Origin: a virus
Taxonomy: Duplodnaviria > Caudoviricetes
Length of the DNA stretch: 54,668 nucleotides
Virus record (IMG/VR): IMGVR_UViG_3300008450_000051
Coordinates: 1-54,668 of that record
Strand: one strand, 5' to 3'
Made by a program: the position numbers and the translations under genes. Of the stretch, positions 15,401 to 36,489 are shown in pieces (the first letter of the stretch is position 1; the number at the start of each line of letters is the position of its first letter). A model generated the notes under the pieces. It saw nothing but the letters and a program-made list of their open reading frames with translations, made no database searches and was not told the origin of the DNA.

Positions 15401-17447
15401 TGGTATAGGCAAAGACAATGTTACTGATCTTGAAATAGCAAAGAAAGCTTTAGAAGATTTTAATAATGATCCTAATAAAGCTGAGATAGAAGATGCTGCT
15501 AAAAGATACCAAGAGATGGCTGATGCTGGTCTCCGTTACATGGTTGATAAGGGTAGACTTGCAGAAGAGATTAGAGATAAAGATGGCAATCTAATTGGTG
15601 GCTATAAGTTCATTAAAGAAAACAACCTTGAGTATGTGGCTATGCAGAGATTGAATGAGACAGAGGTTGGGGAGCCTATTGAATTTAATATTAAAAAAGG
15701 TGGTCAGGTTGGTAGTGTATCAGAGCCAATTAAAAAGATTAAAGGATCTGAGAAAAAAATACAAGACCCATACGTATCTTTATTAGACAACACAAATAGA
15801 ATGATGAAAGAGGCTAATAGGAATGAAGTGCTTCTTTCATTTAGGAATCTAATTGAGAATGAGCAAGATCCACAATTAAGAAAAGATCTTGAAAGCATAG
15901 GTAAAAAAGTTGGTAGTAAAGACAAAGAAACTATTACGGTATTTGTAGACGGTAAACCAGAGTACTGGAAATTCCAGCAAGATATTTATACTGCCTTAAA
16001 GGGATTAGACAGTGAGGCGTATAAGCTACCTACATTTTTAACAGTGTTGCCTCAAGTTCTTAGATGGACTGTTACTAGATTCCCTACGTTTGCAGCTAGA
16101 AATATTGTCCGTGACTTTCAGTCAAGACTCATACTATCTAATGCTAATCCTTGGGAGTCTGTTAAAAGAAGTATTACTACTGCTGATAAGTGGGATGAGG
16201 CTGCTCGTACTGGCGCCCTTAATGCTGGTATGTATACACAAGGGAAAGAGATGTACTACGAGCTTATGAGGGATGCATCTAATAAGATTGTTAAGGAAGG
16301 TAGCTTTGTTGTAACGCCAGATAAATTAAAGTCTCTATGGAACACATATGAGAAAGCTTTATATAAATCAGAGACTACAGGGCGTGTGTCAGAATATGAG
16401 GCTTCGTTCAATGAGGCTAAGAAGAAGGGCATGGATGATTACAATGCCATGCTTTATGCAGGTTCAAGGGCACGCGGATTAATTGATTTTGCTGTGGCTG
16501 GTAATACAATGAAAGTAATCAACCAGTTAATCCCATTCAGTAATGCTGCTGTACAGGGTCTTCGTTCTGCAGCGATGAGAGCGAAAGAAAATCCATCTGG
16601 ATTTGCCATGCGTATTGCACTGTTCTCACTTATACCAGAGATTGCCGTATATAGTTTGTCTAGAGGAGATAAGGATAAAGAGAAAATGTATGAGTCACTA
16701 CCTGATTGGCAAAGAGATATGTTCTATAATATATACATGGGCAACAATAAGTGGCTAGCAGTACCAAAACCATTTGAGCTTAGTTTATTTGGTAGTGCAT
16801 TGAATAGGGGGATGAGTTACGCTGAAGGTAATAAGAAAGCATTTGATGGATTTGCTGGTACGACTTACAAATCACTCATGCCTATAGAGGGCACGGATAT
16901 CGCAGGACCTTGGCAGAAAATGTATGAGGTGAGCGCCAACTATGACTTCTTTAGAAGAAAAGAGATCATTCCTAGATCGCAGTCAGCTTTGGATATGTCA
17001 CTTCGTGATACAGAAAGTGCTTCTAGGATTGGTAAAGTTATTGGTGATCTAATGAAGGCAGACCCAAGAATGGTTGACCATTACATTAAAGGGCAGTTCT
17101 CTTACTTTGGTAAGGCTGCCTTGGAATTATCAAATATGGGTAGACCTAAAGGTGAGGCAAGCGATGAGTTTAAATTATCTGAGAAGTCTGGATTTGTAAA
17201 AGATAACTCAGCATACGTATCTAAGCCTGTACAAGAGCTTAGAGATTTCACAGATAAGTGGGGGTTAAATAGCCATAGATGGATGAAGTACTTTAGAATG
17301 TATCAGAATAATTACTTCAACGAAAAAGATCCAAAGGTTAAAGAGCAATTGGGTAATGAAATGATGGACTTTGCTGAACAACTTTTGAACCTGTATAAAG
17401 AGGTTGGTATAGAAGAACTACAGAAGCAAAAAAAAGGTAAAGACTAA
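9444..17447 (+). CDS. large polyvalent virion protein (zincin-like HExxH domain; LPD38-like C-terminus)
   Basis: 2667 aa; 'GFY..DGSIHINL...ETMMHEGFH' metallopeptidase-like motif; recurring xFSR linkers; C-terminal 'YESLPDWQRDMFY...AVPKPFELSLFG' resembles LPD38. Confidence 0.75.
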   Translation: MAIKYLYSGEIFSPEEVEAAASKRNMSTQDYAKQFNIEGYEDIYEKDGNDVALEQIISDANKSNLKVSDFIAANNFKKKALSIPQDQSLLTGTPNVGENLKAGSQSQLQSGSVVEPIDPKKLSRDRVKLLSDLQKVKDSPSPDKSTMDEFGAQIIYTPRTDEINSIQKQIDELDSKLTGAGYRIEDYQTLASIPDWVSAEGGWSSPKNIAKYSSENPAWGNRFKSKVSAMDAFISMNDYQGAKQLQDLLVAKYGQQSSVANLDGSIKMLESLIDSRIPDKKQEVKSYINQYLKPEFNRFLPDLNKQNMEAYKLDEDQEAALQEMKLLDPAKYEDTVKMLAVPYKPVTGELNKPLLQWDLDKQRGLEKVRYDLKVAGRNNAINYSYSRLYDWRVKYDKATTDEERSNAAIQMEQWQNRINTISEEAKNDSKNYPLYYEDQNKRAATELLDDPDFNPFTYAWKAATKKLKNTAEGIGEVAMSPINAVASMLIGPEYKGAKMATKIGEAQAEATEEYLPASLQYVDPGTIISPNKELKAFADKVKSSDKSDDEKRSEIETYLKNNPNSFEHIENPNAGERKGIFSMASLYANVKTVADISALAGIGATARAYNVLGPTMSATLPFYMDVQQEAYKQRIAAGENSSTAYQNSVKDGMVVAAATLISPIHKIASAALGKAESSAIKNTIGGLTEAEWNAITSKYNRYVVAGSNSLKAMAKEGAKMGLVYGAGTTIGQELLEITPDKKDIKEVVQNGVYSAYDMLTNSAMLLGITGINNFKSVSPQAKSSIYAMANDHLGAKAYFDFLQKNGTISEESATQKKAVVDKLVSVLSQVPTRDKNGKILTEEQRAGYLYRAYQKNQAAELSKSMPDETRVEMEAKAKEMDADNAKIINGTLETDIAEAPKPQVLEVDKPAITSNTAQEVSRVKSLTTEAEDGATFNLDGKKYEGKGLIIPVLSENTTIEELTPQKVADFVEANKAKLGGSTKAGIYKFPNSNKVSIDLNIVVDPKYRDIGLEFGRKAGQESLFDLDTFENVKTGADGKNPMKFSDEQFSEISKALSEGKMPNVFGEMAEGVTAETAKAIDTTGMNDVQKGVVADAPNVLSAITPVMGEAGKKPQLFTYKTDAEYGKAVEGAGGSKEDSTTKGFYMDSDGSIHINLNRATPETMMHEGFHPVLNLLAENKPEIVKELFRQLDTIPVAKAMIDKARANYMGDVTQMKEAITDFNARVAKGEIKLDATTFEQIKQFFIDLMNKLGFSIEGQKIANMKNAAELKNVAELIQKAFTTGEAIKGTEIKDIQSAIEKANQKRVETGEMSAGEKEGGLMFSRTDYGTSGITKKPALDKDEYKAEVASGRISVVDPYKSLENKKFAMTFPDDFFTGTIEVNGEPIGYGNGGVFYTAKHGKRGDAWASVSEGSASNFVTQANKSLEANNGEGIVTIVKGDDMKHKTSLESKVSFVNTILKYAEKTGDTTGVVKAIKSAYNLGNVKDPAKIIEYFNNYLASGRAESGQRMVDAGVSFDTFMASMIKEARPVVTKMMQDMGYKGENFFDGTQLKKGIELATTKGLKNVYSDLLREDFLKDVKPGSAYAAIKFTSPLKFEKDPTHPSYPYVIRTVDGSPVKLEVFDKTFNTYGKDVAITGRKGDETKAFGVATTVSPEFSIKPESKGSASEVSLSESLTGYEAFKKPEFSRTGPQAMANKIIVGDEDISFVLDYVSTPANLLRTLQGANTSNKFFDFNRDVRKPIADQIQNDLEFWKKELSSISPINKEGDLSPIKVNRINKAQDRVDALQNALDSWNNNAFSITDISLNNYKLQTSQPEFSREDKTAKDIISENIQIGKPERKGAVARFIETVGDKNFDVNWMDRVKREMLDSLSIFNKAADRAKGIRGLDEVLPANDPMTLVRLLNGFDASFNSAMNEGMFNAKLERIKSQDGSNMNIDWLMDPISKMSKGSKEGYNQAVKDVTSYMVAKRTVELSKRFDREEMISGIGKDNVTDLEIAKKALEDFNNDPNKAEIEDAAKRYQEMADAGLRYMVDKGRLAEEIRDKDGNLIGGYKFIKENNLEYVAMQRLNETEVGEPIEFNIKKGGQVGSVSEPIKKIKGSEKKIQDPYVSLLDNTNRMMKEANRNEVLLSFRNLIENEQDPQLRKDLESIGKKVGSKDKETITVFVDGKPEYWKFQQDIYTALKGLDSEAYKLPTFLTVLPQVLRWTVTRFPTFAARNIVRDFQSRLILSNANPWESVKRSITTADKWDEAARTGALNAGMYTQGKEMYYELMRDASNKIVKEGSFVVTPDKLKSLWNTYEKALYKSETTGRVSEYEASFNEAKKKGMDDYNAMLYAGSRARGLIDFAVAGNTMKVINQLIPFSNAAVQGLRSAAMRAKENPSGFAMRIALFSLIPEIAVYSLSRGDKDKEKMYESLPDWQRDMFYNIYMGNNKWLAVPKPFELSLFGSALNRGMSYAEGNKKAFDGFAGTTYKSLMPIEGTDIAGPWQKMYEVSANYDFFRRKEIIPRSQSALDMSLRDTESASRIGKVIGDLMKADPRMVDHYIKGQFSYFGKAALELSNMGRPKGEASDEFKLSEKSGFVKDNSAYVSKPVQELRDFTDKWGLNSHRWMKYFRMYQNNYFNEKDPKVKEQLGNEMMDFAEQLLNLYKEVGIEELQKQKKGKD

Positions 17448-25170: not shown

Positions 25171-26166
25171 TTATGTTAAGCGCACATTGAATTGTTTGCG
25201 CCATGTTATCTTACCATTCGGTAGCTCCATGATCTGAGCGCCACCGTTCTGCTCCATGTACTGCTTGAGCTTGTTACCATAGAGTAGCTTCTCTGATTCC
25301 TTCTCCTTTAGTATCTCATTGATGCGTACGTATTCGTGCGCCCATAGGACCTGATCTTGACCACCCTGAATCGTGATATCATTCTCCCGATCCTTGTGCT
25401 TAACGGATATGAAGGCGCTGAAGTCTTCAGAATTATCAGCCGGTGGTTCGTACTTAGCAGCGATGCCATAGAACTCTTCCTTATCAAATGGATCTCTCTC
25501 TATTAGCTCAGCCCTTGCAGCCATCACTCTCTGCTGATGTTCTGTTGCCTTATCAAGAATAGCCTGCTGGATATCAGGATCAGCCTCAAATGTTTTTACC
25601 AGCATGTCCTGACCATCTACCTGCATGCATATCTCTGCATAGTTAAGCCCAGTTACTAGCATGTAGTGATTCATCTGAGCGATATAGTTCGGGGGTACGC
25701 CATCAATATAAGAATCAACAGTCATCTTACCCACGTTCTTAATCTCCAGTATCCCTTTCTTCTTACCATATACTGGATGCTGTGTTACCATACCATCTAG
25801 GTTGGCGAATAGCATAGGGTACTTAGGATTCTCGATGATTGCCTTGACCTTTTTGAACTTACGGACCTTGTTCTTGTAGATCACATTCTTAATGAAGTTC
25901 TCTTCCCCATCCCAGTACTGCCACATCTCTGCGATGGTATCCTCCAGCATCTTACCGAAGGCCATCTGCCTGTTCATCTTTGTGGGCAGTAGGTCCATAC
26001 CAATTGACTGGTAGAATAGATTGATTGGGGACTTCCATTTGTTCCATCCCAGTAGCGTACCGGCATCCGATCCGCCCACCATACCCCGAGATGAAAACGA
26101 CTGGCGTAATCTTTGCCAGTCGATCTCGGATAGGTTCTTCGTGCTTGTCTGTTTAAGCTTTGGCAT
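25171..26166 (-). CDS. YqaJ-like viral recombinase exonuclease
   Basis: 'VGGSDAGTLLG.NKWKSP', 'FANLDG', 'LEIK', 'YIAQMNHYMLVTG'. Confidence 0.9.
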   Translation of the reverse strand: MPKLKQTSTKNLSEIDWQRLRQSFSSRGMVGGSDAGTLLGWNKWKSPINLFYQSIGMDLLPTKMNRQMAFGKMLEDTIAEMWQYWDGEENFIKNVIYKNKVRKFKKVKAIIENPKYPMLFANLDGMVTQHPVYGKKKGILEIKNVGKMTVDSYIDGVPPNYIAQMNHYMLVTGLNYAEICMQVDGQDMLVKTFEADPDIQQAILDKATEHQQRVMAARAELIERDPFDKEEFYGIAAKYEPPADNSEDFSAFISVKHKDRENDITIQGGQDQVLWAHEYVRINEILKEKESEKLLYGNKLKQYMEQNGGAQIMELPNGKITWRKQFNVRLT

Positions 26167-28090: not shown

Positions 28091-28320
28091 AGGATTTTAT
28101 TTATGTTGGCGTACTCTTCGTGTACTGGCCCCGATAGGCAGGAGCCTACCACCCTTTGGTTGAGTGTGAACTCCACCCACGTTTCATCTTTTAGTGTCGG
28201 TTCGGGGGAATCAATCGGAACCCAAGTAGTACGGCTAACTACTCTATTACCACCATAGGGTACGTCCTTATTAAATCTAACCCACCATCTGTTCTCTAGT
28301 CTGAATGTTTGTCCTTGCAT
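28087..28320 (-). CDS. hypothetical protein
   Basis: 77-aa ORF directly after the integrase. Confidence 0.55.
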   Translation of the reverse strand: MQGQTFRLENRWWVRFNKDVPYGGNRVVSRTTWVPIDSPEPTLKDETWVEFTLNQRVVGSCLSGPVHEEYANINKIL

Positions 28321-28322
28321 AG

Positions 28323-29330
28323 TTAAGCATTTAAGAATTCTTTATAGTAGTTGTTTATCTCACTCTTATGTACACTATCCACCCAGCCTTGATACCTCTT
28401 GATGGCATCCGACTTATGGCCGGAGGCAAACCTTACGTGGTCCAGTGACACACCACCAGCCAGCATCGTTGTGATGGCGGTCTTGCGTAGCATATGTGGG
28501 TGTACGATATCGCAGAACTTACTTGACTGGAGCGACTTATCACCAGTGTGGTCCGCCTTCTTGTACGTGGTCTCCTCGTGCATCTCAGGGTAGGTAGCAA
28601 AGAATGGCTTGAGATTCTTGTTGATGAAGGTATCCTTACATCCGAAGCGAATGGGTGTGTATACCGATCCGTAGTTCTCTAGATTATAGAGATATCTTTT
28701 GTATAAAGATTCCGGCAGTGGTAGTGTGGTCATCGCCCCAGTCTTCTGATTCTCCTTCATAAGATATACGGAGCCGTTCATTACGATATCAGACTTGCTC
28801 AGGTTGATAGCATCGCCAACACGAAGAGAGGTGACCAGCATCGTTGCGCTTAGTTCCCAAAGATACTTATGCTCGGGGGACATAGAGTCATAGCGGTTAG
28901 CGGTATCGTTTATAAAGTCCTTAACGAACTGAATGGGTAGTGTTACAATGGGTACGTCAACTCCAATGGCGCGTCTTACTTTGGGTAGTGTGAGGAAGTA
29001 CTGCTCGGCCCAGTAGTCTGTCACTATTTTTAGAATATTGGTGACATCACGTCTTGTGTTAGCGGAGAATTTCTGACGAGTCATCCAGTCAATGAAGAGG
29101 TCGATGTGTCTATTGAACTTGTCTGCAACGGCGCGCTTCTCCTCCAGTGATAGGCTCGTGAGGTTGAACTCTTCTAGGTTGATACCACTCTTGGCGTATC
29201 GTTGGTAGGTCTTGAAGGCAAAGTTGTATGACTTGATAGACATCGGTTTGTAGTTGGTGCCGGATCGTGTGCGTAGTTCCCCAGTCCTCATCATCGTTAC
29301 ATACTTCTCCAGTAATGGTGTTAGCTTCAT
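28323..29330 (-). CDS. int: tyrosine recombinase/integrase
   Basis: Catalytic R (SLRVGD), K (QKTG), HxxR (HMLRKT), H (SGH), Y (IKRYQ). Confidence 0.9.
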   Translation of the reverse strand: MKLTPLLEKYVTMMRTGELRTRSGTNYKPMSIKSYNFAFKTYQRYAKSGINLEEFNLTSLSLEEKRAVADKFNRHIDLFIDWMTRQKFSANTRRDVTNILKIVTDYWAEQYFLTLPKVRRAIGVDVPIVTLPIQFVKDFINDTANRYDSMSPEHKYLWELSATMLVTSLRVGDAINLSKSDIVMNGSVYLMKENQKTGAMTTLPLPESLYKRYLYNLENYGSVYTPIRFGCKDTFINKNLKPFFATYPEMHEETTYKKADHTGDKSLQSSKFCDIVHPHMLRKTAITTMLAGGVSLDHVRFASGHKSDAIKRYQGWVDSVHKSEINNYYKEFLNA

Positions 29331-30403: not shown

Positions 30404-30571
30404 AGGGTTTTGTTTTTGTGTAAGTTAATAATGTTTTTCTTTAGCTCATCAAGGTAGATAATAATTTTATCCACATCGTGCTTGTTGACTTCATCTCGTA
30501 ACTGGCTTTCCGTTTGCAGTCCTCTGTCATACCACCTAGAATCATCACTCATTTGGTAGTAGAAATCGTGG

Positions 30572-31281: not shown

Positions 31282-31572
31282 TTACCAACTTGTCATAGCT
31301 CGTTGATAATTAGGATTACTTTTTAATGCTTCATCACAAGCAGTTTCAATATCCTTATCTATAATTGTTCTAAATCCTTTGTATTGACCATATGCGCCCC
31401 CGTATGTTTGCAACTGCAATATCTCTTTATTTTCATCTAAGTATTCTTTTACTTCTTTGGTGTCATTTTTAAATACTTCATATAAAGTAAGAGTCCCAAC
31501 TTGACCATAGCGGTCTACTCCACATTCAGAATAAAATGCTACTAATTTTTCTTTAATAAATTCTTTTTTCAT
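31282..31572 (-). CDS. hypothetical protein (AT-rich)
   Basis: 96-aa ORF, visibly lower GC than its neighbours. Confidence 0.6.
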   Translation of the reverse strand: MKKEFIKEKLVAFYSECGVDRYGQVGTLTLYEVFKNDTKEVKEYLDENKEILQLQTYGGAYGQYKGFRTIIDKDIETACDEALKSNPNYQRAMTSW

Positions 31573-31631
31573 AATTTTTTAAATTAGATTTTACCAACTT
31601 GTTTGATAATAAAATTGTTGTATCTCTTCCA

Positions 31632-31898
31632 TTACCATTGATTTTCGGTGAAGAATTTGTATGAATTTTGTAGGCTACCAGTTGTGCCTTTCTTTACCTC
31701 ATCGCGACTGGGGATGCGGTTGCCGTAGTAGTCTCGGTGGGACTCTTTGGGTAGGAAACAAGCGCCTGCTCTTAGTAAGTCCATTGCAGAGCGACCGATT
31801 GCTCCTTCCATTTTCCACGCCAGTCCAGTTTCAATTAGGTGTTGCATCTCTTCGTAGCCTTGCTCACGCTGATGCTTGCGGATAGTTTGAATGTGCAT
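31632..31898 (-). CDS. hypothetical early protein
   Basis: MHIQTIRK...'LIETGLAWKMEGAIGRSAMDLL.AG.C...RDYYGN'; start after TAACCAAACCC leader. Confidence 0.6.
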   Translation of the reverse strand: MHIQTIRKHQREQGYEEMQHLIETGLAWKMEGAIGRSAMDLLRAGACFLPKESHRDYYGNRIPSRDEVKKGTTGSLQNSYKFFTENQW

Positions 31899-32064
31899 AA
31901 CATAGGGTTTGGTTAATAATTTCAACGATAGTATCTTGGACTTCAAACTCATCATAAAGGTCTGTGTTTGTGCAGTCCTTTACATATCCTAGTTCAACTA
32001 GCTTGTCAGTAATTCGAATAGCGATGTCTCTTACATCATCTTCCGATAAGAATTTGCTTGTCAT
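31864..32064 (-). CDS. hypothetical early protein
   Basis: 66 aa, preceded by conserved leader. Confidence 0.55.
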   Translation of the reverse strand: MTSKFLSEDDVRDIAIRITDKLVELGYVKDCTNTDLYDEFEVQDTIVEIINQTLCYAHSNYPQASA

Positions 32065-32079
32065 AAAATTAGGGTTTGG

Positions 32080-32343
32080 TTAGGAACTGGGAGTGGAGTC
32101 GGAATGGTTAAACTCCGTTAAAATACATAAGCCTCTATCTGCACAATCTTTTACTATCTTTTTATCATTATGCTTTAGGAAGGCTACTATGCATTCATAT
32201 TCGGGCTTGTATCGGTCATTAAATGATGATAACTGGTAATCATAGAATAATTTTTTAATGTCTTCGTATAGTAGGTCGTACTCGTATTGAATGCCTATGA
32301 TTTCGTTATACAACTGGGTGAATAAAAAGAAAGAATAGTTCAT
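32080..32343 (-). CDS. hypothetical early protein
   Basis: 87-aa ORF. Confidence 0.55.
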   Translation of the reverse strand: MNYSFFLFTQLYNEIIGIQYEYDLLYEDIKKLFYDYQLSSFNDRYKPEYECIVAFLKHNDKKIVKDCADRGLCILTEFNHSDSTPSS

Positions 32344-32360
32344 AAATTTATTTTTTTTAG

Positions 32361-32621
32361 TTAATCAATCTCAATAAGTTTTCCGTCAACCAATTCGTAC
32401 TGATAGTCATCCTCCTCCCAATCCGTCCAGTAAGAATCGGTATCGGGAATCAGTTCGCCTTCACTATCAGTAGCGCCACTATACACCATATCGTGCCATT
32501 CAGCATCGGTGTATACTTGGTTAAGGCATTTATCGGAGCAGTAGTATGCCTCTCCTCCTCCAACTACATAGCCTTCGTTCATTCCGCACTCACATTGAGT
32601 GCATTGTCTTGCGTATTTCAT
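32361..32621 (-). CDS. small Cys-containing acidic protein
   Basis: CTQC...YCSDKC zinc-binding pattern, acidic C-terminus. Confidence 0.65.
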   Translation of the reverse strand: MKYARQCTQCECGMNEGYVVGGGEAYYCSDKCLNQVYTDAEWHDMVYSGATDSEGELIPDTDSYWTDWEEDDYQYELVDGKLIEID

Positions 32622-32637
32622 ATGAGTGGTGGTTTGG

Positions 32638-32841
32638 TTAAAAATTTAGCATTTCTATTTGTGATTTCAAGTACTCTTCAGCTTGATACCTTTTTTCTTC
32701 ATCACTTATTGTAATATTCTTGCCGTTGGCAAATTCAATATGTACTTTGCCATTATTTTGATGTGGTTTAAATCCACATTCCTTACCGATTAGTTCAAGT
32801 TGAAGCATCGCGTAACGAGTAGTTAAACTTATTGTGTTCAT
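32638..32841 (-). CDS. hypothetical early protein
   Basis: MNTISLTTRY..., after TAACCAAACCCC leader. Confidence 0.55.
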   Translation of the reverse strand: MNTISLTTRYAMLQLELIGKECGFKPHQNNGKVHIEFANGKNITISDEEKRYQAEEYLKSQIEMLNF

Positions 32842-32857
32842 ATGACTGGGGGTTTGG

Positions 32858-33010
32858 TTAATCATTTAAAGAATTAAGATGCTCTATCTCTGATTCATCA
32901 AGGTAGATGCGTAGACCATTATCTAACTTTATGTAGTTCACTCCTACATCAATAATCTTTTTGCCTACAATCCATTCCTTTGCTTCTTGCGTGAGGGTTA
33001 AGGTTGTCAT
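32858..33010 (-). CDS. small early protein (50 aa, below cutoff)
   Basis: MTTLTLTQEAKEWIVGKKIIDVGVNYIKLDNGLRIYLDESEIEHLNSLND*. Confidence 0.55.
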   Translation of the reverse strand: MTTLTLTQEAKEWIVGKKIIDVGVNYIKLDNGLRIYLDESEIEHLNSLND

Positions 33011-33032
33011 ATTTTATGGGGTTTTGATGAGG

Positions 33033-33076
33033 AACTGGGGGTGGTATCGCTCCACCTTCGCACTCTGCTCCCAGTT
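33033..33076 (-). ncRNA. tRNA-like three-way-junction element, copy 6
   Basis: AACTGGG-A-GCA(GAG)TGC-GAA-GGTGG(AGCGATA)CCACC-CCCAGTT. Confidence 0.7.
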
Positions 33077-33084
33077 GTTGGTGA

Positions 33085-33315
33085 TTAGCACCACGCTTGC
33101 GAACTGCTGATAGCCACCATAAACAATTGCTCAAACTCTCCCTTTGTTATCGTGGTGAAATCATCCCATCCGCAGTAAGCATCAAGAAGGTCAAGCGGTG
33201 ATGACTTGCCATACTCCCATTTATATACACCGAATGGTATTTCTTTTAGTCCATTTACTCCTTCCCTTTGGTAGGTAATTATTGCTTGGAAACCGAATAA
33301 AAAATATTGATTCAT
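33085..33315 (-). CDS. hypothetical early protein
   Basis: MNQYFLFGF..., start 20 nt after RNA element. Confidence 0.6.
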   Translation of the reverse strand: MNQYFLFGFQAIITYQREGVNGLKEIPFGVYKWEYGKSSPLDLLDAYCGWDDFTTITKGEFEQLFMVAISSSQAWC

Positions 33316-33334
33316 TGTATTGGGTTTTGGTGAG

Positions 33335-33381
33335 GAACTGGTCGGATAGCGAGTCCGATTGATGCCGAGCATCGCCAGTTC
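33335..33381 (-). ncRNA. tRNA-like three-way-junction element, copy 5
   Basis: GAACTGG-C-GATGC(TCG)GCATC-AA-TCGGA(CTCGCTA)TCCGA-CCAGTTC. Confidence 0.7.
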
Positions 33382-33387
33382 GTGTGT

Positions 33388-33567
33388 TTACTCGTTGTCG
33401 TATTCGTTTTTATACCAATGTGAGATGTGAATTAACCTATCAATTAACTGAGAATCTGACTCTTTGGCGAGGTCAATAAAATCTTTGTGAGTAAATAAAT
33501 CTAATTCGCTTCCAGTCAGTTCAACAATGGCATCGACTAGTTTTTGTCTAATTGTGTTTGGAGTCAT
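33388..33567 (-). CDS. small early protein (59 aa, below cutoff)
   Basis: MTPNTIRQKLVDAIVELTG...YKNEYDNE*, flanked by RNA elements. Confidence 0.6.
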   Translation of the reverse strand: MTPNTIRQKLVDAIVELTGSELDLFTHKDFIDLAKESDSQLIDRLIHISHWYKNEYDNE

Positions 33568-33588
33568 AGTATTGGAGGTTTGGTTAGC

Positions 33589-33630
33589 AACCGAGGGCAG
33601 TATCGCTCTGCCTTAACCACTCTCTCGGTT
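33589..33630 (-). ncRNA. tRNA-like element, copy 4
   Basis: AACCGAG-AGAGTGGTTAA-GGCAG(AGCGATA)CTGCC-CTCGGTT; linker resembles a D-loop. Confidence 0.7.
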
Positions 33631-33638
33631 TGGGTACG

Positions 33639-33899
33639 TCAGCTATTTACTCGTTCTGCAAATTCCTTTAACGTATGGTAGCTATATGAATCCGACTCGT
33701 ATAAATCATAGAGAAATTCTTTTGCGCAGTAGAATCTTTCTACCTCTTCGCCGAAATACACTTGCTTGATAAGGTCGTTAATGGTTGGGAAAATGACCGC
33801 CGTAGTTCTTGTAATTACAATGTGAACTGCATTGCCATTGCCATCGTGACGGCATTCGTAAGTTTCATCCGCTTTGCGGAGATGTTCGCTATGCAACAT
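33639..33899 (-). CDS. hypothetical early protein
   Basis: 86-aa ORF flanked by RNA elements. Confidence 0.6.
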   Translation of the reverse strand: MLHSEHLRKADETYECRHDGNGNAVHIVITRTTAVIFPTINDLIKQVYFGEEVERFYCAKEFLYDLYESDSYSYHTLKEFAERVNS

Positions 33900-33919
33900 A
33901 TTACTGGAGTTTTGGTTAG

Positions 33920-33966
33920 GAACTGCTCCGGTATCGCTCCGGTATGACCGCTGAGGTCGGCAGTTC
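33920..33966 (-). ncRNA. tRNA-like three-way-junction element, copy 3
   Basis: GAACTGC-C-GACC(TCAGC)GGTC-ATA-CCGG(AGCGATA)CCGG-A-GCAGTTC. Confidence 0.7.
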
Positions 33967-33972
33967 GGGGGA

Positions 33973-34317
33973 TTATTTACCTATCAAATCAAGAAAATCC
34001 ATACAAGTGTATTTACCTTCTAATGGCTCCCATACTGAAACCCCTTCTATATTATCTATATATTCATTTTTGTCTTCACTATTTTCTATTCTCCTTACTT
34101 GCTCCTCTATCTCTTCTCCGTCCCAATTACTTAAATAATATGATGCATTTGTTACATAATCTTCTGGAATGGCATTCAGAATACTCTCAGATTCCGCTTT
34201 TAAATGAAGGATAAGACCTTCGGTTACTACGCAATTGATATCGTTATTGGTAGTTGGGTTGTAATTTTCAACTGCTTGAGTTATAGCTTCTATTGCTTTT
34301 CTTACTTGAGTTTTCAT
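33973..34317 (-). CDS. hypothetical early protein
   Basis: MKTQVRKAIE..., acidic, 114 aa. Confidence 0.6.
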   Translation of the reverse strand: MKTQVRKAIEAITQAVENYNPTTNNDINCVVTEGLILHLKAESESILNAIPEDYVTNASYYLSNWDGEEIEEQVRRIENSEDKNEYIDNIEGVSVWEPLEGKYTCMDFLDLIGK

Positions 34318-34333
34318 AATGTTTTGAGTTTGG

Positions 34334-34492
34334 TTAATGCTTAAAAAATACACTTAAAGATTTTGTATGCTTATTTGCTTGGTAGTATAATGGCTTTTCG
34401 TTTTTGCCTGCCATTGATAGCCATAAATTCAAATGTTGAGTAGATTTGAATGTTCGGCAATAAGTTTTTGACTGATGTTGAATCTTATTCAT
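34334..34492 (-). CDS. small early protein (52 aa, below cutoff)
   Basis: MNKIQHQSKTYCRTFKST...; start 20 nt after RNA element. Confidence 0.5.
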   Translation of the reverse strand: MNKIQHQSKTYCRTFKSTQHLNLWLSMAGKNEKPLYYQANKHTKSLSVFFKH

Positions 34493-34511
34493 TTTATAGG
34501 GTTTTGATGAG

Positions 34512-34557
34512 GAACTGCGGTCGGTTTCGCTCCGACTTCGGTCTTACCTCGCAGTTC
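34512..34557 (-). ncRNA. tRNA-like three-way-junction element, copy 2
   Basis: GAACTGCG-A-GGT(AAG)ACC-GAA-GTCGG(AGCGAAA)CCGAC-CGCAGTTC. Confidence 0.7.
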
Positions 34558-34562
34558 GGCCG

Positions 34563-34772
34563 CTACTTGAAATACTCTTCCACTAATTCAGTATAATCAT
34601 CATTTTTACCATACCCTCTAAATACTTGTAAATATTTAGAATCATACCCATTCATTAGCTTATCTATATCACTTAATGAAGGGATTTTACTTCTTGTTTC
34701 ACTACCTTGTATAGATGGGTATGGGGAATTGAAATCCCTTTCTGATGTGTGAAATAATAATTGGTAATCCAT
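34563..34772 (-). CDS. hypothetical early protein
   Basis: MDYQLLFHTSER..., flanked by RNA elements. Confidence 0.6.
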   Translation of the reverse strand: MDYQLLFHTSERDFNSPYPSIQGSETRSKIPSLSDIDKLMNGYDSKYLQVFRGYGKNDDYTELVEEYFK

Positions 34773-34791
34773 TTTATTTAGTTTTGATGAG

Positions 34792-34834
34792 GAACTGCAC
34801 ACCATTGAAGGTCACGGCCAAACCGATGCAGTTC
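34792..34834 (-). ncRNA. tRNA-like three-way-junction element, copy 1
   Basis: GAACTGCA-T-CGGT(TTG)GCCG-TG-ACC(TTCAAT)GGT-G-TGCAGTTC. Confidence 0.65.
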
Positions 34835-34921
34835 GGGGGACTTATCTACAAATTTGGTCTTGCAGTAAACCTACTACATACCCTACTACCAGTAGGACAA
34901 GTAATAACTGAATAACTTGCT

Positions 34922-35116
34922 TCATAGAGGTGACAATTTAGTTTGACGGCATACACGCTCCCATTTTAAGTCGCGTAGGATTTGCTTAGAATCCCCACCT
35001 AACTCGGCAAGGATTTGCTTTACCCGATTGTGGGTAGAGATAACGGCTTCCGCTCTGCGGATAACTTGCCCATTGGCTTTTGCCGTGAATAGGGGGGACT
35101 TAATTCTTTTGCGCAT
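34922..35116 (-). CDS. small basic early protein
   Basis: 64 aa, start after CCCAGTT leader. Confidence 0.55.
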   Translation of the reverse strand: MRKRIKSPLFTAKANGQVIRRAEAVISTHNRVKQILAELGGDSKQILRDLKWERVCRQTKLSPL

Positions 35117-35230
35117 AACTGGGAGATTGAAGGGTTATAAAATCGGTTTGGAAGGTCACAATCTGCCAACCCTCATAGAGGAATTTACTGGCTATTTGCT
35201 GACCTCTTAGGGTGGTGATGTTAATGGTTA

Positions 35231-35410
35231 TCATAGTTTTTCAATTGCTTTATTTGAAAGTCCTAGTGTTAATACGGTAACTCCCATTATTGAAGTAATT
35301 GCGCCAAACATCATAAAGCCTTTATCTAGGTAAGGAAGTCCCGCTAGAAAGAAAGGGTTTAAAATGATTGCTGGGATTACTAATTTTAATAAGAATACTA
35401 GTTTTTTCAT
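35231..35410 (-). CDS. small membrane protein, first gene of early operon
   Basis: MKKLVFLLKLVIPAIILNPFFLAGL...; two hydrophobic stretches; start 13 nt after the hammerhead. Confidence 0.6.
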   Translation of the reverse strand: MKKLVFLLKLVIPAIILNPFFLAGLPYLDKGFMMFGAITSIMGVTVLTLGLSNKAIEKL

Positions 35411-35423
35411 AACTGGGGTTTTT

Positions 35424-35472
35424 GGTTTCGCCTTGCTTAGGCTCATCAGTACGGATAGCGTATCCGTAGACC
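35424..35472 (-). ncRNA. hammerhead ribozyme (type III topology)
   Basis: Minus strand GGTC^TACGGATA(CGC)TATCCGTA-CTGATGA-GCCT(AAGCA)AGGC-GAAA-CC: complete core, GUC cleavage triplet, 8-bp stem I, 4-bp stem II, short 3-bp stem III. Confidence 0.85.
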
Positions 35473-35886
35473 TTATCCAATCTGTCGGAGGATGAACTGC
35501 CGATGCGACACCGCATCCGTTTACACCCTCATTCCGACTCCGAAAGAGCGCTACGATAATCACGGTCACACCGCTTGGGGTTTTCTCTCCCCGACTATCC
35601 CTCATCAATGCACCGACAAGGTAGTGGTTTCCTAAAAGTTAGCCATTAGGTATGGGCTGACTGGTTTGGGGCTGATAGCCTTAGGTCGGAGGTCATCCGA
35701 GCATCATAACTGGTACTAACGGAGGAGAGGGCGGTAGGTGACTACTGATGCCTTCGCTCGTTTCCCGATGCCGTAAGAGGTTTGGTGTTCCGTCCATCAT
35801 ACTCACCTATACGGGTGGATGGGTGGGAGTGCGTTACCCTAACTCAAAACCTTAAAAGAACTTCGGACTCACTAACGAATCCGAGG

Positions 35887-35919
35887 CAAACATACATCGG
35901 CAGGGTAACTACTTCCAAA
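35887..35919 (-). promoter_or_regulatory. Bacteroidota sigma70-type early promoter
   Basis: Minus strand TTTG-N21-TATGTTTG, perfect -33/-7 consensus, A-tract upstream. Confidence 0.8.
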
Positions 35920-35939
35920 TTTATTTTTTTAAATTGCAG

Positions 35940-36001
35940 TTATCCACATAAAAAATAGCTTGTAAGTTATTGAAAATCACAGCGTAGAAAAGTTATCCAC
36001 A
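35940..36001 (+). promoter_or_regulatory. two perfect DnaA boxes (TTATCCACA)
   Basis: TTATCCACA at 35940-35948 and 35993-36001, same orientation, AT-rich context. Confidence 0.6.
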
Positions 36002-36133: not shown

Positions 36134-36156
36134 AAAGGGGGGAGTTCGGGGGTATA

Positions 36157-36489
36157 CTAAAGCCGTTTGTTAAGTAAGTAGTTACGTATATAGGATAGAT
36201 ATTCTCTCCCTAAAGGAGTAATAGAGTAACGCTTGTGCGTCTCCCTAATGGCAAGGCCAAGAAGACAAAGAGAATTCAAGTAGTTCCAAGAGGAGCGATT
36301 GTCAGCCCTCTTAACGTGTGGACGATGCAAGAAGACAAAGTCAGCCAAGGCCGTTTGACTGGTAGCACCAAGACGCTTGAGGCCATACAAGAATCGTAAC
36401 TGGGTGTAGTTTAACTGGGGAATCCCAGTACGCTGAGAGGCTCGGTAAATAGCCGTATCAACACACAAAAAAAACTTCTCTATCTTCAC
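36157..36489 (-). CDS. winged-helix (MarR-like) DNA-binding protein
   Basis: 'LNYTQLRFLYGL....ATSQTALAD', 'L..LGLA', 'YSITPLGREYL' wHTH signature. Confidence 0.7.
   Translation of the reverse strand: MKIEKFFLCVDTAIYRASQRTGIPQLNYTQLRFLYGLKRLGATSQTALADFVFLHRPHVKRADNRSSWNYLNSLCLLGLAIRETHKRYSITPLGREYLSYIRNYLLNKRL

What the first reader, a model, noticed from the sequence alone, without database searches (positions are those of the whole stretch)
32071..34834. Early operon punctuated by six covarying mini tRNA-like RNA elements, each just upstream of a small gene
Seen: six 42-47-nt minus-strand elements (34792-34834, 34512-34557, 33920-33966, 33589-33630, 33335-33381, 33033-33076) plus a degenerate remnant at ~32071-32110. 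Each lies a few nt after a stop codon and ~20 nt before the next ATG. They share a 7-8-bp closing stem (usually GAACTGN/NCAGTTC), a short variable arm, and an adjacent short stem (5 bp in four copies) with a 7-nt loop in five copies (AGCGATA x3, AGCGAAA, CTCGCTA; TTCAAT in copy 1). A tail resembling CTCATCAAAAC/CTAACCAAA follows. Stem sequences differ between copies but pairing is kept (GGTGG/CCACC, GTCGG/CCGAC, GGCAG/CTGCC, TCGGA/TCCGA; closing stem AACCGAG/CTCGGTT in copy 4), so structure rather than sequence is conserved. Known: acceptor stem plus T-arm is the geometry RNase P and RNase Z recognise, and P1 C4 and P4 CI RNAs are RNase P-processed phage RNAs. Inference: the elements are tRNA-mimic punctuation marks that cut the early polycistron into separate mRNAs (like T7 RNase III sites or mitochondrial tRNA punctuation). 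They might also release small RNAs that decoy host tRNA-targeting defences, or act as cassette-shuffling joints.
Basis: partly seen in the sequence, partly recalled or inferred. Interest (0 to 1): 0.9.

Follow-up and report, generated by a model that had tools for sequence, protein, structure and literature searches.

The report
Mini-tRNA punctuation in a phage operon
Six small tRNA-shaped RNA elements sit between the small genes of an uncultured freshwater phage, in the slots where related phages carry self-cutting ribozymes or real tRNAs, so they probably mark where a long transcript is cut into single-gene messages and where gene cassettes are swapped.

Summary
All six minus-strand elements are at the stated coordinates, and a covariance model built from them finds only those six in the 54.7-kb phage record. 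The same model finds 66 distinct copies in 18 sources, with 5-8 copies per whole phage record, always on one strand in one 2-4 kb cluster. Both stems covary: 98.5% of cells are paired against 76.6% after shuffling. Twenty of the 66 relatives carry the tRNA T-arm consensus GGTTCRANYCC. The canonical T-loop (23 copies) always comes with a D-loop-like ATGGT linker. C73 is invariant. The window's own copies are diverged, and none has the consensus. Placement is rigid: 5-8 nt after a stop codon and 18-21 nt before the ATG. In relatives the equivalent slots hold hammerhead ribozymes (types I and III), a twister-like ribozyme or true tRNA genes. The window operon itself opens with a type III hammerhead. 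Type I hammerhead cleavage sites lie 19 nt before the ATG in 2 of 4 cases, which is the modal spacing for the elements. The best reading is tRNA-mimic cleavage signals, presumably for RNase P and RNase Z, that also act as recombination joints for gene cassettes. Cleavage itself is not shown. No Rfam family or paper matched. I rate it a new variant of tRNA-like punctuation.

The parts
34792..34834 (-). tRNA-like element c1 (type IV). It has an 8-bp closing stem GAACTGCA/TGCAGTTC, a small hairpin, and a short T-like arm ACC/GGT with loop TTCAAT. The tail and leader at 34775-34791 run to the ATG at 34772-34774.
   Evidence: (48.3 bits)
34512..34557 (-). tRNA-like element c2 (type II). It has an 8-bp closing stem, hairpin A, and T-like arm GTCGG/CCGAC with loop AGCGAAA. 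It is identical to L008:998-1055. The ATG lies 19 nt downstream.
   Evidence: (70.5 bits)
33920..33966 (-). tRNA-like element c3 (type III). It has a 7-bp closing stem, a longer hairpin A, and T-like arm CCGG/CCGG with loop AGCGATA. The ATG lies 20 nt downstream.
   Evidence: (60.7 bits)
33588..33631 (-). tRNA-like element c4. Its closing stem is the variant AACCGAG/CTCGGTT, and its T-like arm is GGCAG/CTGCC with loop AGCGATA. The ATG lies 20 nt downstream.
   Evidence: (58.5 bits); the minimum-energy fold was a different structure
33335..33381 (-). tRNA-like element c5 (type III). It has a 7-bp closing stem, a 5-bp hairpin A, and T-like arm TCGGA/TCCGA with loop CTCGCTA. The ATG lies 19 nt downstream.
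   Evidence: z -3.55; 58.3 bits
33033..33076 (-). tRNA-like element c6 (type II). Its closing stem is AACTGGG/CCCAGTT and its T-like arm is GGTGG/CCACC with loop AGCGATA. The ATG lies 21 nt downstream.
   Evidence: (65.6 bits)
32065..32091 (-). 3'-half remnant, consisting of CCCAGTTC plus the tail CTAACCAAAC and a leader before the ATG at 32062-32064. The upstream ORF 32080-32343 reads through it and stops at the TAA inside the tail. There is no 5' strand and no T-arm.
   Evidence: no fold; no hit
36141..36152 (-). Possible 5'-half remnant CCCCCGAACTCC, 4 nt after the TAG stop of ORF 36157-36489.
35420..35476 (-). Type III hammerhead ribozyme candidate at the head of the array. It has a GUC cleavage site, an 8-bp stem I, the core CUGAUGAG...CGAAAC and a 4-bp stem II, but stem III is only about 3 bp. 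A 13-nt leader follows, then the ATG at 35408-35410.
   Evidence: (33.4 bits, below the gathering score of 48.5; E 7.6e-5 to 1.6e-4). Homologous position in L008, L030 and L098.
35916..35923 (-). TAAATTTG, which matches the Bacteroidota -7 promoter motif TAnnTTTG (motif recalled from memory). It is the putative start of the transcript that carries the array.
   Evidence: function is inferred
35477..35910 (-). Long G+C-rich non-coding leader between the putative promoter and the hammerhead. Its 3' part, 35477-35789, is replaced by other sequence in relatives and in metagenome variants.
34328..34336 (-). Bare TAACCAAAC leader, with the stop codon inside it, at a gene junction that has no element. 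The same motif occurs at 32852-32860, 32632-32640 and 31907-31915.

Best explanation
The six elements belong to a multi-copy family of tRNA-like minihelices, called TLEs here. They are transcribed as part of one leftward polycistronic RNA in a phage that probably infects Bacteroidota. Each TLE is an acceptor-like stem stacked on a T-arm, usually 13 bp in total. It is preceded by a C-run and followed by C73-U-C-A and a C/A-rich leader that has no Shine-Dalgarno sequence. I infer that host tRNA-processing enzymes cut the TLE out: RNase P at the 5' side of G1, and RNase Z or an equivalent just after the stem or C73. The upstream message would then end just before the TLE. The downstream gene would become its own mRNA with a standard leader of about 18-19 nt. 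Hammerhead ribozymes, twister-like ribozymes and true tRNAs do the same job in equivalent slots of related phages. Because the module ends are nearly invariant (CCCCCGAACTG and CAGTTCCTCATCAAAAC), they also serve as short homologies at which cassettes of small genes are gained, lost and exchanged. The following are shown here: the family, the structure, the tRNA features, the placement, the interchange with ribozymes and tRNAs, and the joints at elements. Transcription, the cleaving enzymes, the cut sites and the benefit are all inferred.
For: Family and structure:
- Model R2 finds 76 matches (66 distinct) in the window plus 19 loci.
- 98.5% of 725 cells are paired, against 76.6% after shuffling and at most 45% when partners are slid. 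146 cells have changes on both sides, and 10 of 12 pairs covary.
- MAFFT plus RNAalifold, run blind on 52 of the 66, predicts the same 12 pairs, 9 of them with compensatory changes.

The sense strand is what folds:
- Non-Watson-Crick cells are 13 G-U against 1 A-C.
- All copies lie on the coding strand.

tRNA features:
- GGTTCRANYCC occurs in 20 of 66 copies.
- The pair closing the loop is G-C in 50 of 57.
- The TTCGAnT loop co-occurs with an ATGGT linker in 23 of 23 cases, against 1 of 43 for other loops.
- C73 is present in 66 of 66, U74 in 53 of 66 and A76 in 62 of 66.
- One T-arm is matched by the Rfam tmRNA model's T-arm.

Placement:
- The stop codon lies 5-8 nt upstream in 52 of 67 contexts. 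The ATG lies 18-21 nt downstream in 57 of 67, and exactly 19 nt in 31.

Interchange with other cleavage modules:
- Arrays read HH-III then TLE x6 in the window; tRNA, HH-III, HH-I, TLE x5, tRNA in L030; twister-like, HH-I, TLE, tRNA in L007; and HH-III, TLE x3, tRNA in L098. All modules share one strand.
- Four type I hammerheads fold as exact three-way junctions with covarying stems II and III.
- Their cleavage site lies 19, 19, 22 and 37 nt before the ATG.
- The twister-like 3' end lies 19 nt before the ATG.
- True tRNAs in the arrays mostly lack an encoded CCA and have U-A-A trailers like the TLE tails.

One orthologous junction:
- The DUF7417-like gene is preceded by TLEs of three different types in L008, L021, L030, L031 and L038, but by a bare leader in the window.

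Precedent:
- Plant mitochondrial t-elements direct RNase P and RNase Z cleavage at mRNA ends (PMC1920247, passages read).
Against: - No transcript end, cleavage product or enzyme test exists for this family.
- The window's six copies lack the canonical T-loop: 0 of 6 have GGTTCRANYCC.
- Position -1 is C in 57 of 66, and the stack is 13 bp rather than 12. Both depart from typical pre-tRNAs.
- Positions 1-6 of the closing stem are almost invariant. Structure-reading enzymes would not require that, so a sequence-specific reader or recombination-driven homogenisation may be involved.
- Only 6 of about 20 junctions in the window's operon have a TLE, so cleavage is not needed for every gene.
- Rfam did not report the type I hammerheads at E<=1. 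The type III and twister-like hits are below their gathering scores.
- The host is unknown, so its RNase P and RNase Z complement could not be checked.
Confidence: 0.55

Rival explanations
1. The elements are mainly DNA-level recombination joints, comparable to the PeSL motifs of T4-type phages. Conserved ends let the phage's own RecE-like and Rad52-like proteins swap cassettes. The tRNA-like fold would be a relic of a tRNA-derived ancestor with no RNA function.
For: - Ten of 15 contig joints in three DNA runs have an end in a TLE or hammerhead module, although modules cover about 12% of the stretch. Examples are 33071>34829 and 33381>34497, each seen in 3 runs, and 33037>33959/60, where a different TLE interior is inserted.
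- L031:10646-10703 is a chimera of two elements with its crossover in the T-loop.
- Half remnants occur at 32065-32091 and 36141-36152.
- Cassette content between conserved flanks differs completely between the window and its close relative L008.
- A RecE-like exonuclease and a Rad52-family protein are encoded downstream.
Against: - A relic would decay. Instead the T-stem varies freely in sequence while pairing is kept: 97.9% of cells are paired and all 5 pairs covary.
- The unpaired motifs TTCGAnT and ATGGT, and C73, are conserved across very different stems.
- The G-U to A-C ratio of 13:1 points to a folded sense strand.
- The fixed 19-nt spacing to the ATG, and replacement by ribozymes in equivalent slots, are not explained.
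- This reading is compatible with being a second role rather than the only one.
Confidence: 0.15
2. The elements are uncleaved structural insulators or translation aids. A compact fold at about -19 would keep the leader, which has no Shine-Dalgarno sequence, single-stranded, or would offer a ribosome standby or docking site. The terminating ribosome, 5-8 nt upstream, might melt the closing stem and so couple translation of neighbouring genes.
For: - Spacing is very tight on both sides: stop to element 5-8 nt, and element to ATG 18-21 nt.
- Type III hammerhead and twister-like modules stay attached upstream of a 12-19 nt leader.
- Shine-Dalgarno-like 4-mers occur upstream of only 2 of 43 ORFs of at least 100 aa, and the leaders are A/C-rich.
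Against: - It does not explain why the fold must mimic a tRNA elbow, C73 and a pre-tRNA-like trailer.
- It does not explain why catalytically complete ribozyme cores occupy equivalent slots.
- Type I hammerheads sequester part of the leader until they cleave.
- Bare TAACCAAAC leaders suffice at other junctions.
Confidence: 0.12
3. The released RNAs of about 45-50 nt are the point. Mini-tRNAs with an intact elbow and acceptor end would act as decoys or sponges for host tRNA-binding factors, such as tRNA-targeting defence nucleases, modification enzymes or the CCA-adding enzyme.
For: - Elbow motifs and C73 are under selection.
- There are 5-8 copies per genome, in a region of small host-takeover-type genes.
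- The nearly invariant acceptor-like sequence suggests a specific binding partner.
Against: - Nothing here tests it.
- There is no anticodon arm, which is the usual target of anticodon nucleases.
- The strict spacing to the ATG, and substitution by ribozymes that release no tRNA-like RNA, argue that the cut matters more than the product.
Confidence: 0.08
4. The elements are single-stranded-DNA structures. They could be integron-attC-like sites for the phage tyrosine recombinase at 28323-29330, or N4-type hairpin promoters for a virion RNA polymerase.
For: - The layout resembles an integron: an array of small promoterless ORFs, each with a structured repeat whose structure is better conserved than its sequence.
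- A tyrosine recombinase is conserved 2-5 kb downstream of arrays in L031, L098, L007, L018/L025 and L038.
- A 2667-aa virion-block protein of unknown core function is present.
Against: - The recombinase matches only generic Xer-type models, far below their cut-offs, and matches no integron-integrase model.
- The attC core sites (RYYYAAC/GTTRRRY, recalled from memory) are absent from the sequence.
- The chimeric element has its crossover inside the loop, not at a core site.
- The giant protein shows only an LPD38 domain and no polymerase family.
- A host-type -7 box precedes the operon.
- tRNA elbow motifs and co-located ribozymes make sense only as RNA.
Confidence: 0.05

Closest known systems
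Plant mitochondrial t-elements, and tRNA punctuation of organelle transcripts (Forner et al. 2007, PMC1920247; passages read)
   Same: Both are tRNA-like folds embedded in mRNA precursors, with an acceptor-like stem and a T-arm that may match GGTTCRANYCC. In plant mitochondria the borders coincide with mRNA ends made by RNase P (mRNA 3' ends) and RNase Z (mRNA 5' ends). True tRNAs do the same job at other junctions.
   Different: t-elements are single, scattered, cloverleaf-like relics in organelle genomes. The elements here are 43-47-nt minihelices with no anticodon arm and a near-invariant closing stem. They come in arrays of 5-8 per phage genome, at fixed distances from the stop codon and the ATG, and they interchange with self-cleaving ribozymes. 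Cleavage is not yet shown for them.
PeSL promoter/stem-loop cassettes of T4-type phages (PMC2839356, PMC4122927; search listing and start of abstracts only)
   Same: Both are conserved short intergenic motifs that flank small variable ORFs in hyperplastic regions. In both, insertions, deletions and replacements between related phages occur at the motifs.
   Different: PeSLs are promoter plus terminator-like stem-loops, as stated in the papers' titles and abstracts. The elements here contain no host promoter motif, have a three-way tRNA-like fold with covariation, and co-occur with ribozymes.
Self-cleaving ribozymes near phage genes (review PMC6765202; passages read)
   Same: The review says hammerhead and twister ribozymes have been suggested to process polycistronic transcripts, but that their purpose remains undefined. 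Here hammerhead and twister-like motifs sit in the same arrays and the same slots as the TLEs.
   Different: The TLEs have no ribozyme core. No Rfam ribozyme model hits them at E<=10. They would depend on host enzymes acting in trans.
Integron attC sites
   Same: Both form arrays of small ORF cassettes, each with a structured imperfect inverted repeat whose fold is better conserved than its sequence. A tyrosine recombinase gene lies nearby in both.
   Different: The attC core sites and an integron-type integrase are absent (the core motif is recalled from memory). The folded strand is the sense strand and carries tRNA motifs. The observed crossovers look like homologous recombination.
tRNA-like domains of tmRNA and bacterial Y RNA (YrlA) (PMC4201824 in search listing only), and mascRNA of MALAT1 (recalled from memory)
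   Same: All have an acceptor stem and a T-arm with a D-loop surrogate but no decoding anticodon arm. mascRNA is cut out of a longer transcript by RNase P and RNase Z (recalled).
   Different: Those are single-copy domains of dedicated non-coding RNAs. Only one TLE T-arm gives a weak partial tmRNA hit (14 bits). There is no G3-U70 pair, no resume codon and no Ro-binding module.
P1 C4 and P4 CI RNAs and the Rfam Flavo-1 family
   Same: These are phage or Bacteroidota small structured RNAs.
   Different: Neither Rfam family matches anything in 31500-35500 at E<=10.

Membership tests
tRNA (Rfam RF00005 / ARAGORN) | Full cloverleaf with an anticodon arm, detectable by tRNA models | tested here: not met
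   ARAGORN finds 0 tRNAs in the window. RF00005 does not hit any element at E<=10 in the window or at E<=1 in 11 related loci, although it finds the true tRNAs there. The interior is only 8-24 nt.
tRNA (Rfam RF00005 / ARAGORN) | 7-bp acceptor stem stacked on a 5-bp T-stem with a 7-nt T-loop of consensus GGTTCRANYCC | tested here: inconclusive
   The closing stem is 7-9 bp and the T-stem 4-7 bp, and the stack is 13 bp in 36 of 66 copies rather than 12. The consensus is present in 20 of 66 family members but in 0 of 6 window copies. The loop-closing G-C pair is present in 50 of 57.
tRNA-like processing signals (t-elements / tRNA punctuation) | An acceptor-like stem plus T-arm-like hairpin embedded in an mRNA precursor between coding regions | tested here: met
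   The elements are on the coding strand, 5-8 nt after a stop codon and 18-21 nt before an ATG.
tRNA-like processing signals (t-elements / tRNA punctuation) | Transcript ends at the element borders, made by RNase P and RNase Z | not testable with these tools
   Only one RNA run holds any part of the stretch. It is stored as contigs, which cannot show ends.
Integron attC | R''/R' core sites and a cognate integron integrase | tested here: not met
   The closing strands are GAACTG/CAGTTC, not the attC cores (recalled from memory). The recombinase hits only generic Xer models at 16-28 bits, against cut-offs of 220 or more.
PeSL-type promoter/stem-loop cassettes | A host early promoter inside the repeated motif | tested here: not met
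   On the minus strand the only two TAnnTTTG hits inside 32071-36000 are at 35923 and 35894, both upstream of the array. The tails read CTCATCAAAAC. The -7 motif is recalled from memory.
PeSL-type promoter/stem-loop cassettes | Insertions, deletions and replacements between related phages bounded by the motif | tested here: met
   and the chimera seen.
Known Rfam RNA families (4227 models, including Flavo-1, C4 and all ribozyme classes) | A score at or near a family's gathering threshold over the element | tested here: not met
   There are 0 gathering-level hits in the window. No hit of any kind overlaps an element at E<=10.
Hammerhead ribozyme (neighbouring module 35420-35476, not the TLEs) | Core CUGAUGA...GAAA, an NUH cleavage site and three stems | tested here: inconclusive
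   The core, the GUC site and stems I and II are perfect. Stem III is about 3 bp. The score is 33.4 bits against a gathering score of 48.5. The homologue in L030 scores 44.4 bits.

The most novel reading that the evidence does not exclude
A group of freshwater phages builds its host-takeover region from portable 'cistron-start modules'. Three chemically different devices would be interchangeable at the same slot: mini-tRNA mimics cut by host RNase P and RNase Z, hammerhead ribozymes, and twister-like ribozymes. All three would yield the same C/A-rich leader of about 19 nt, suited to a host that does not use Shine-Dalgarno sequences. The invariant module ends would double as recombination handles. 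The result would work like an integron, but run on RNA-processing signals and homologous recombination. If true, it would give phage-borne self-cleaving ribozymes a concrete, testable job.
Probability: 0.35. Interest if true: 0.9.

Novelty: new variant of a known kind. Interest (0 to 1): 0.8.

Why it matters
tRNA-like punctuation is textbook for organelles but, as far as my searches show, is not described as a repeated design element of a tailed phage (also no Rfam family, and no match covering at least 80% of an element in 50,697 deposited phage records).

The purpose of bacterial and phage hammerhead and twister ribozymes is still called undefined in the 2019 review I read in part. Here the ribozymes, true tRNAs and tRNA mimics occupy the same slot, with the same spacing to the start codon. 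That turns the open question into a simple comparative experiment.

The finding also suggests how polycistronic messages are handled in hosts that do not use Shine-Dalgarno sequences. It offers compact natural insulator and processing parts of 43-47 nt. And it shows a mechanism by which small phage genes are shuffled in natural populations.

Tried and rejected
- **Model R1** was built with the closing stem one column out of register, which was my error. I used it only to collect candidates and not for any pair count.
- **Second viral-contig scan** used the two closing strands with a gap. R1 found elements in only L115 among L106-L181. L098 came from that scan too, and L068 is doubtful. The rest look like chance matches, as do about 45 of the 61 hits of the first scan.
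- **Genome scan of 185,579 species** gave 2 hits. One is chance (L182). The other is a 5.3-kb contig binned into a MAG (L183). This gave no prophage and no host.
- **BLAST of two elements against 50,697 phage records** gave 0 records covering at least 80% of the query. The partial hits are T-arms of real tRNAs.
- **BLAST of the 4.5-kb region against phages** gave no match.
- **RNA evidence.** The single RNA run (X20) contributed one 291-nt contig, at 35505-35795. It left the elements uncovered, which says nothing either way.
- **Pfam on 10 small ORFs of the region** gave only weak MarR and DUF7417 hits, both below their cut-offs. Nothing was RNA-related.
- **The 2667-aa protein** shows only LPD38 and an unnamed PHROG family, so the virion-polymerase idea has no support.
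- **Rfam E-value scan of L065, L048, L031, L060 and L038** found no ribozymes. A hammerhead-like motif with CUGACGA and a U-C mismatch at 10.1-11.1 in L065 and L048 was seen by eye only.
- **Other CCCCCGAAC sites** at 28200, 25687 and 6156 lie in or opposite coding sequence and do not fold as elements.
- **Supplementary files** of the papers were not consulted.

Full report
**What the window is.** The window is a complete IMG/VR virus record of 54,668 bp, classed as linear and estimated 82% complete. Its terminase and primase-helicase find their best cultured matches, at about 30% identity, in phages of Flavobacterium, Cellulophaga and Tenacibaculum. Shine-Dalgarno-like 4-mers precede only 2 of 43 ORFs of at least 100 aa, and the upstream regions are A-rich. 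A Bacteroidota host is therefore likely but not shown. The finding lies in a leftward block of about 21 small ORFs, roughly 35410 to 30400. This block sits upstream of a tyrosine recombinase, a Rad52-family protein, a RecE-like exonuclease and a primase-helicase. 'Early' is inferred from that layout.

The 17-mer spanning the 3' strand and tail occurs 6 times against 0.12 expected; one of these is the remnant, and c4 is too diverged to be hit. Five of the six copies fold on their own into a three-way junction: a closing stem, a small hairpin, and a hairpin of 3-5 bp, with a 7-nt loop in four copies and 6 nt in c1, abutting the 3' strand. The single-sequence z-scores are modest (-1.6 to -3.6), and c4's minimum-energy fold is a different one. 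The 'remnant' near 32071-32110 is only a 3' half, and the upstream ORF reads through it. Rfam at gathering level finds nothing in the window and ARAGORN finds no tRNA. At E<=10 no Rfam family touches an element, including Flavo-1 and C4.

**The family.**
- A scan of viral contigs with the tail 17-mer gave 61 loci, of which about 16 hold real elements.
- My first model, R1, had a mis-registered stem and was used only to collect candidates.
- Model R2, built from the six window copies with the correct structure, finds exactly those six in the window. Across the window and 19 loci it finds 76 matches, 66 of them distinct.
- As a specificity control, 76 unrelated loci totalling 651,601 bases gave hits in one locus only.
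- In five whole phage records there are 5-8 copies each. All lie on one strand, within a single 2-4 kb cluster per record.
- No copy was found in 50,697 deposited phage records.
- A scan of 185,579 prokaryote species found no prophage copy; the one true element there lies on a 5.3-kb phage-like contig binned into a MAG.

**Structure is under selection.**
- On the model-fitted alignment, 98.5% of 725 cells pair, against 76.6% after shuffling (0 of 500 shuffles reach the observed value) and at most 45% when partners are slid.
- Ten of 12 pairs change on both sides, in 146 cells.
- A structure-blind MAFFT alignment of 52 of the 66 distinct copies gives the same 12 pairs by RNAalifold, 9 of them with compensatory changes. 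I left out 14 rows: the chimera, the doubtful L068, and twelve copies from the lower-scoring part of the R2 hit list whose T-arm or 3' strand the model had aligned irregularly.
- Positions 1-6 of the closing stem hardly vary. Position 7 and all five T-stem pairs vary freely.
- Non-Watson-Crick cells are G-U 13 times and A-C once, so it is the sense strand that folds.

**The elements are tRNA-like.**
- Twenty of 66 copies, from 13 of 18 sources, carry the T-arm consensus GGTTCRANYCC. This is the motif used to find plant mitochondrial t-elements.
- The pair closing the loop is G-C in 50 of 57 copies.
- Every copy with a TTCGAnT loop (23 of 23) has an ATGGT linker resembling the D-loops of the true tRNAs in these phages. 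Only 1 of 43 other copies has it.
- The base after the stem is C in 66 of 66, followed by U (53 of 66), C (46 of 66) and A (62 of 66). A run of five C residues precedes the stem.
- The closing stem and T-stem together make 13 bp in 36 of 66 copies. They are split 7+6, 8+5 or 9+4. Eight more copies score 14 only because my parser paired the first and last loop bases.
- The window's copies belong to diverged types, with loops AGCGAWA, CTCGCTA and TTCAAT. They share arrays, flanks and intermediate forms with the canonical type.

**Placement is rigid.** Among 67 distinct contexts, the stop codon lies 5-8 nt before the element in 52. An ATG opening an ORF of at least 30 codons lies 18-21 nt after it in 57, and at exactly 19 nt in 31.

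**Ribozymes and tRNAs occupy the same slots.**
- The window's operon opens with a type III hammerhead candidate at 35420-35476. Its core is perfect but stem III is short, and it scores 33.4 bits against a gathering score of 48.5. A 13-nt leader and an ATG follow.
- Homologous type III hammerheads head the arrays in L008, L030 (44.4 bits) and L098.
- L007, L017, L030 and L183 carry type I hammerheads. Rfam does not report these at E<=1, but all four fold as exact three-way junctions with covarying stems II and III.
- Their cleavage site lies 19, 22, 19 and 37 nt before the next ATG, in that order.
- L007 has a twister-P1-like motif (47.5 bits against a gathering score of 67.2) whose 3' end lies 19 nt before an ATG.
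- True tRNA genes lie in the same arrays on the same strand. Most have no encoded CCA and have U-A-A trailers like the element tails.
- At one orthologous junction, before a DUF7417-like gene, five relatives have elements of three different types while the window has a bare TAACCAAAC leader.

**Recombination at the elements.**
- The small ORFs are mosaic. The close relative L008 has entirely different cassettes between the same conserved flanks.
- L031:10646-10703 is a chimera of two elements joined in the T-loop, with both stems broken.
- The phage is held by 19 DNA runs of 16 studies, labelled freshwater or 'fungus' metagenomes.
- In three of these runs, 10 of 15 contig joints have an end in an element or in the hammerhead. 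Two joints carry a different element interior between the conserved strands, and those interiors match the ones in L031:8584 and L065:13439.
- These contigs may come from related strains rather than from variants of a single genome.

**Mechanism.** I conclude, at about 0.55, that the elements are tRNA-mimic cleavage signals in a polycistronic RNA. RNase P and RNase Z are the presumed enzymes, by analogy with t-elements. Cassette exchange at the conserved ends is a second, demonstrated consequence. Several points count against this. No RNA ends have been seen. C at position -1 and a 13-bp stack are atypical for pre-tRNAs. The near-invariant closing-stem sequence is unexplained. Only 6 of about 20 junctions carry an element. 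The rivals are: a pure recombination joint, an uncleaved insulator or translation aid, a released decoy RNA, and a single-stranded-DNA site. Each is weighed in its own section of this report.

**Literature.** Five full-text searches found no description of such phage elements. The PeSL papers were seen only as listings and abstract starts.

Noticed in passing
window 35420-35476 (-): A type III hammerhead ribozyme candidate with a perfect catalytic core and a GUC site but a stem III of only about 3 bp (33.4 bits, below the Rfam threshold). It sits 13 nt before the first small ORF of the operon. Homologues occupy the same position in L008, L030 and L098.
   Followed up: yes
window 35477-35910 (-): A non-coding, G+C-rich, strongly folding leader of about 430 nt between a TAAATTTG box and the hammerhead, with no Rfam match at E<=10. 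Its 3' part, 35477-35789, is replaced by an unrelated structured sequence in L008, L065 and L048 and in metagenome variants. The only RNA-library contig on the whole 4.4-kb stretch covers 35505-35795, which is a weak hint at best because DNA can be present in such libraries.
   Followed up: partly
L007 7657-7721 (-): A twister-P1-like ribozyme candidate (47.5 bits, gathering score 67.2, E 1.7e-7) in the same array as a type I hammerhead, a tRNA-like element and a tRNA-Trp gene. Its 3' end lies 19 nt before an ATG.
   Followed up: partly
L007 7392-7443 (-), L030 4209-4261 (-), L017 10491-10565 (-), L183 4781-4835 (+): Type I hammerheads with a conserved stem I, GGTTAA/TTAACC. The 3' strand of stem I is the start of the TTAACCAAAC-type leader that also occurs on its own at several window junctions. 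Rfam does not report them at E<=1.
   Followed up: yes
L115 4133-4211 (+): A tRNA with anticodon CTA, which would read the amber stop codon (ARAGORN labels it tRNA-Pyl). It lies in the same array as three tRNA-like elements. This may hint at stop-codon suppression or recoding in that phage.
   Followed up: no
L030 6498-6590 (-): A tRNA-Gly(CCC) call of 93 nt, unusually long, with extra sequence between the anticodon arm and the T-arm. It scores 31.8 bits, just above the tRNA gathering score.
   Followed up: no
window 35940-35948 and 35993-36001 (-): Two copies of TGTGGATAA, which resembles a DnaA box (resemblance recalled from memory), just upstream of the putative promoter. A third copy lies at 30467-30475. 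In all there are 3 matches against 0.68 expected, and 4 of 100 shuffles reach 3.
   Followed up: no
window 36157-36489 (-): A 110-aa protein with a weak MarR-type winged-helix match (18.1 bits, below its cut-off). It is conserved directly upstream of the arrays in nine related loci and could be the regulator of the array operon.
   Followed up: no
window 9444-17447 (+): A 2667-aa ORF in the virion-gene block. Its only named domain is LPD38 (large polyvalent protein associated domain), and the rest matches an unnamed PHROG family.
   Followed up: partly
L031 10646-10703 (-): A chimeric tRNA-like element. Its 5' half comes from a c2-type copy and its 3' half from a GGTGG/CCACC-type copy, joined within the shared loop, so neither stem can pair.
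   Followed up: yes
window 28200-28208, 25687-25695 and 6156-6164 (-): CCCCCGAAC occurs 6 times on the minus strand against 0.09 expected. Three of these lie outside any element, in or opposite coding sequence, and do not fold as elements. The excess is unexplained.
   Followed up: partly
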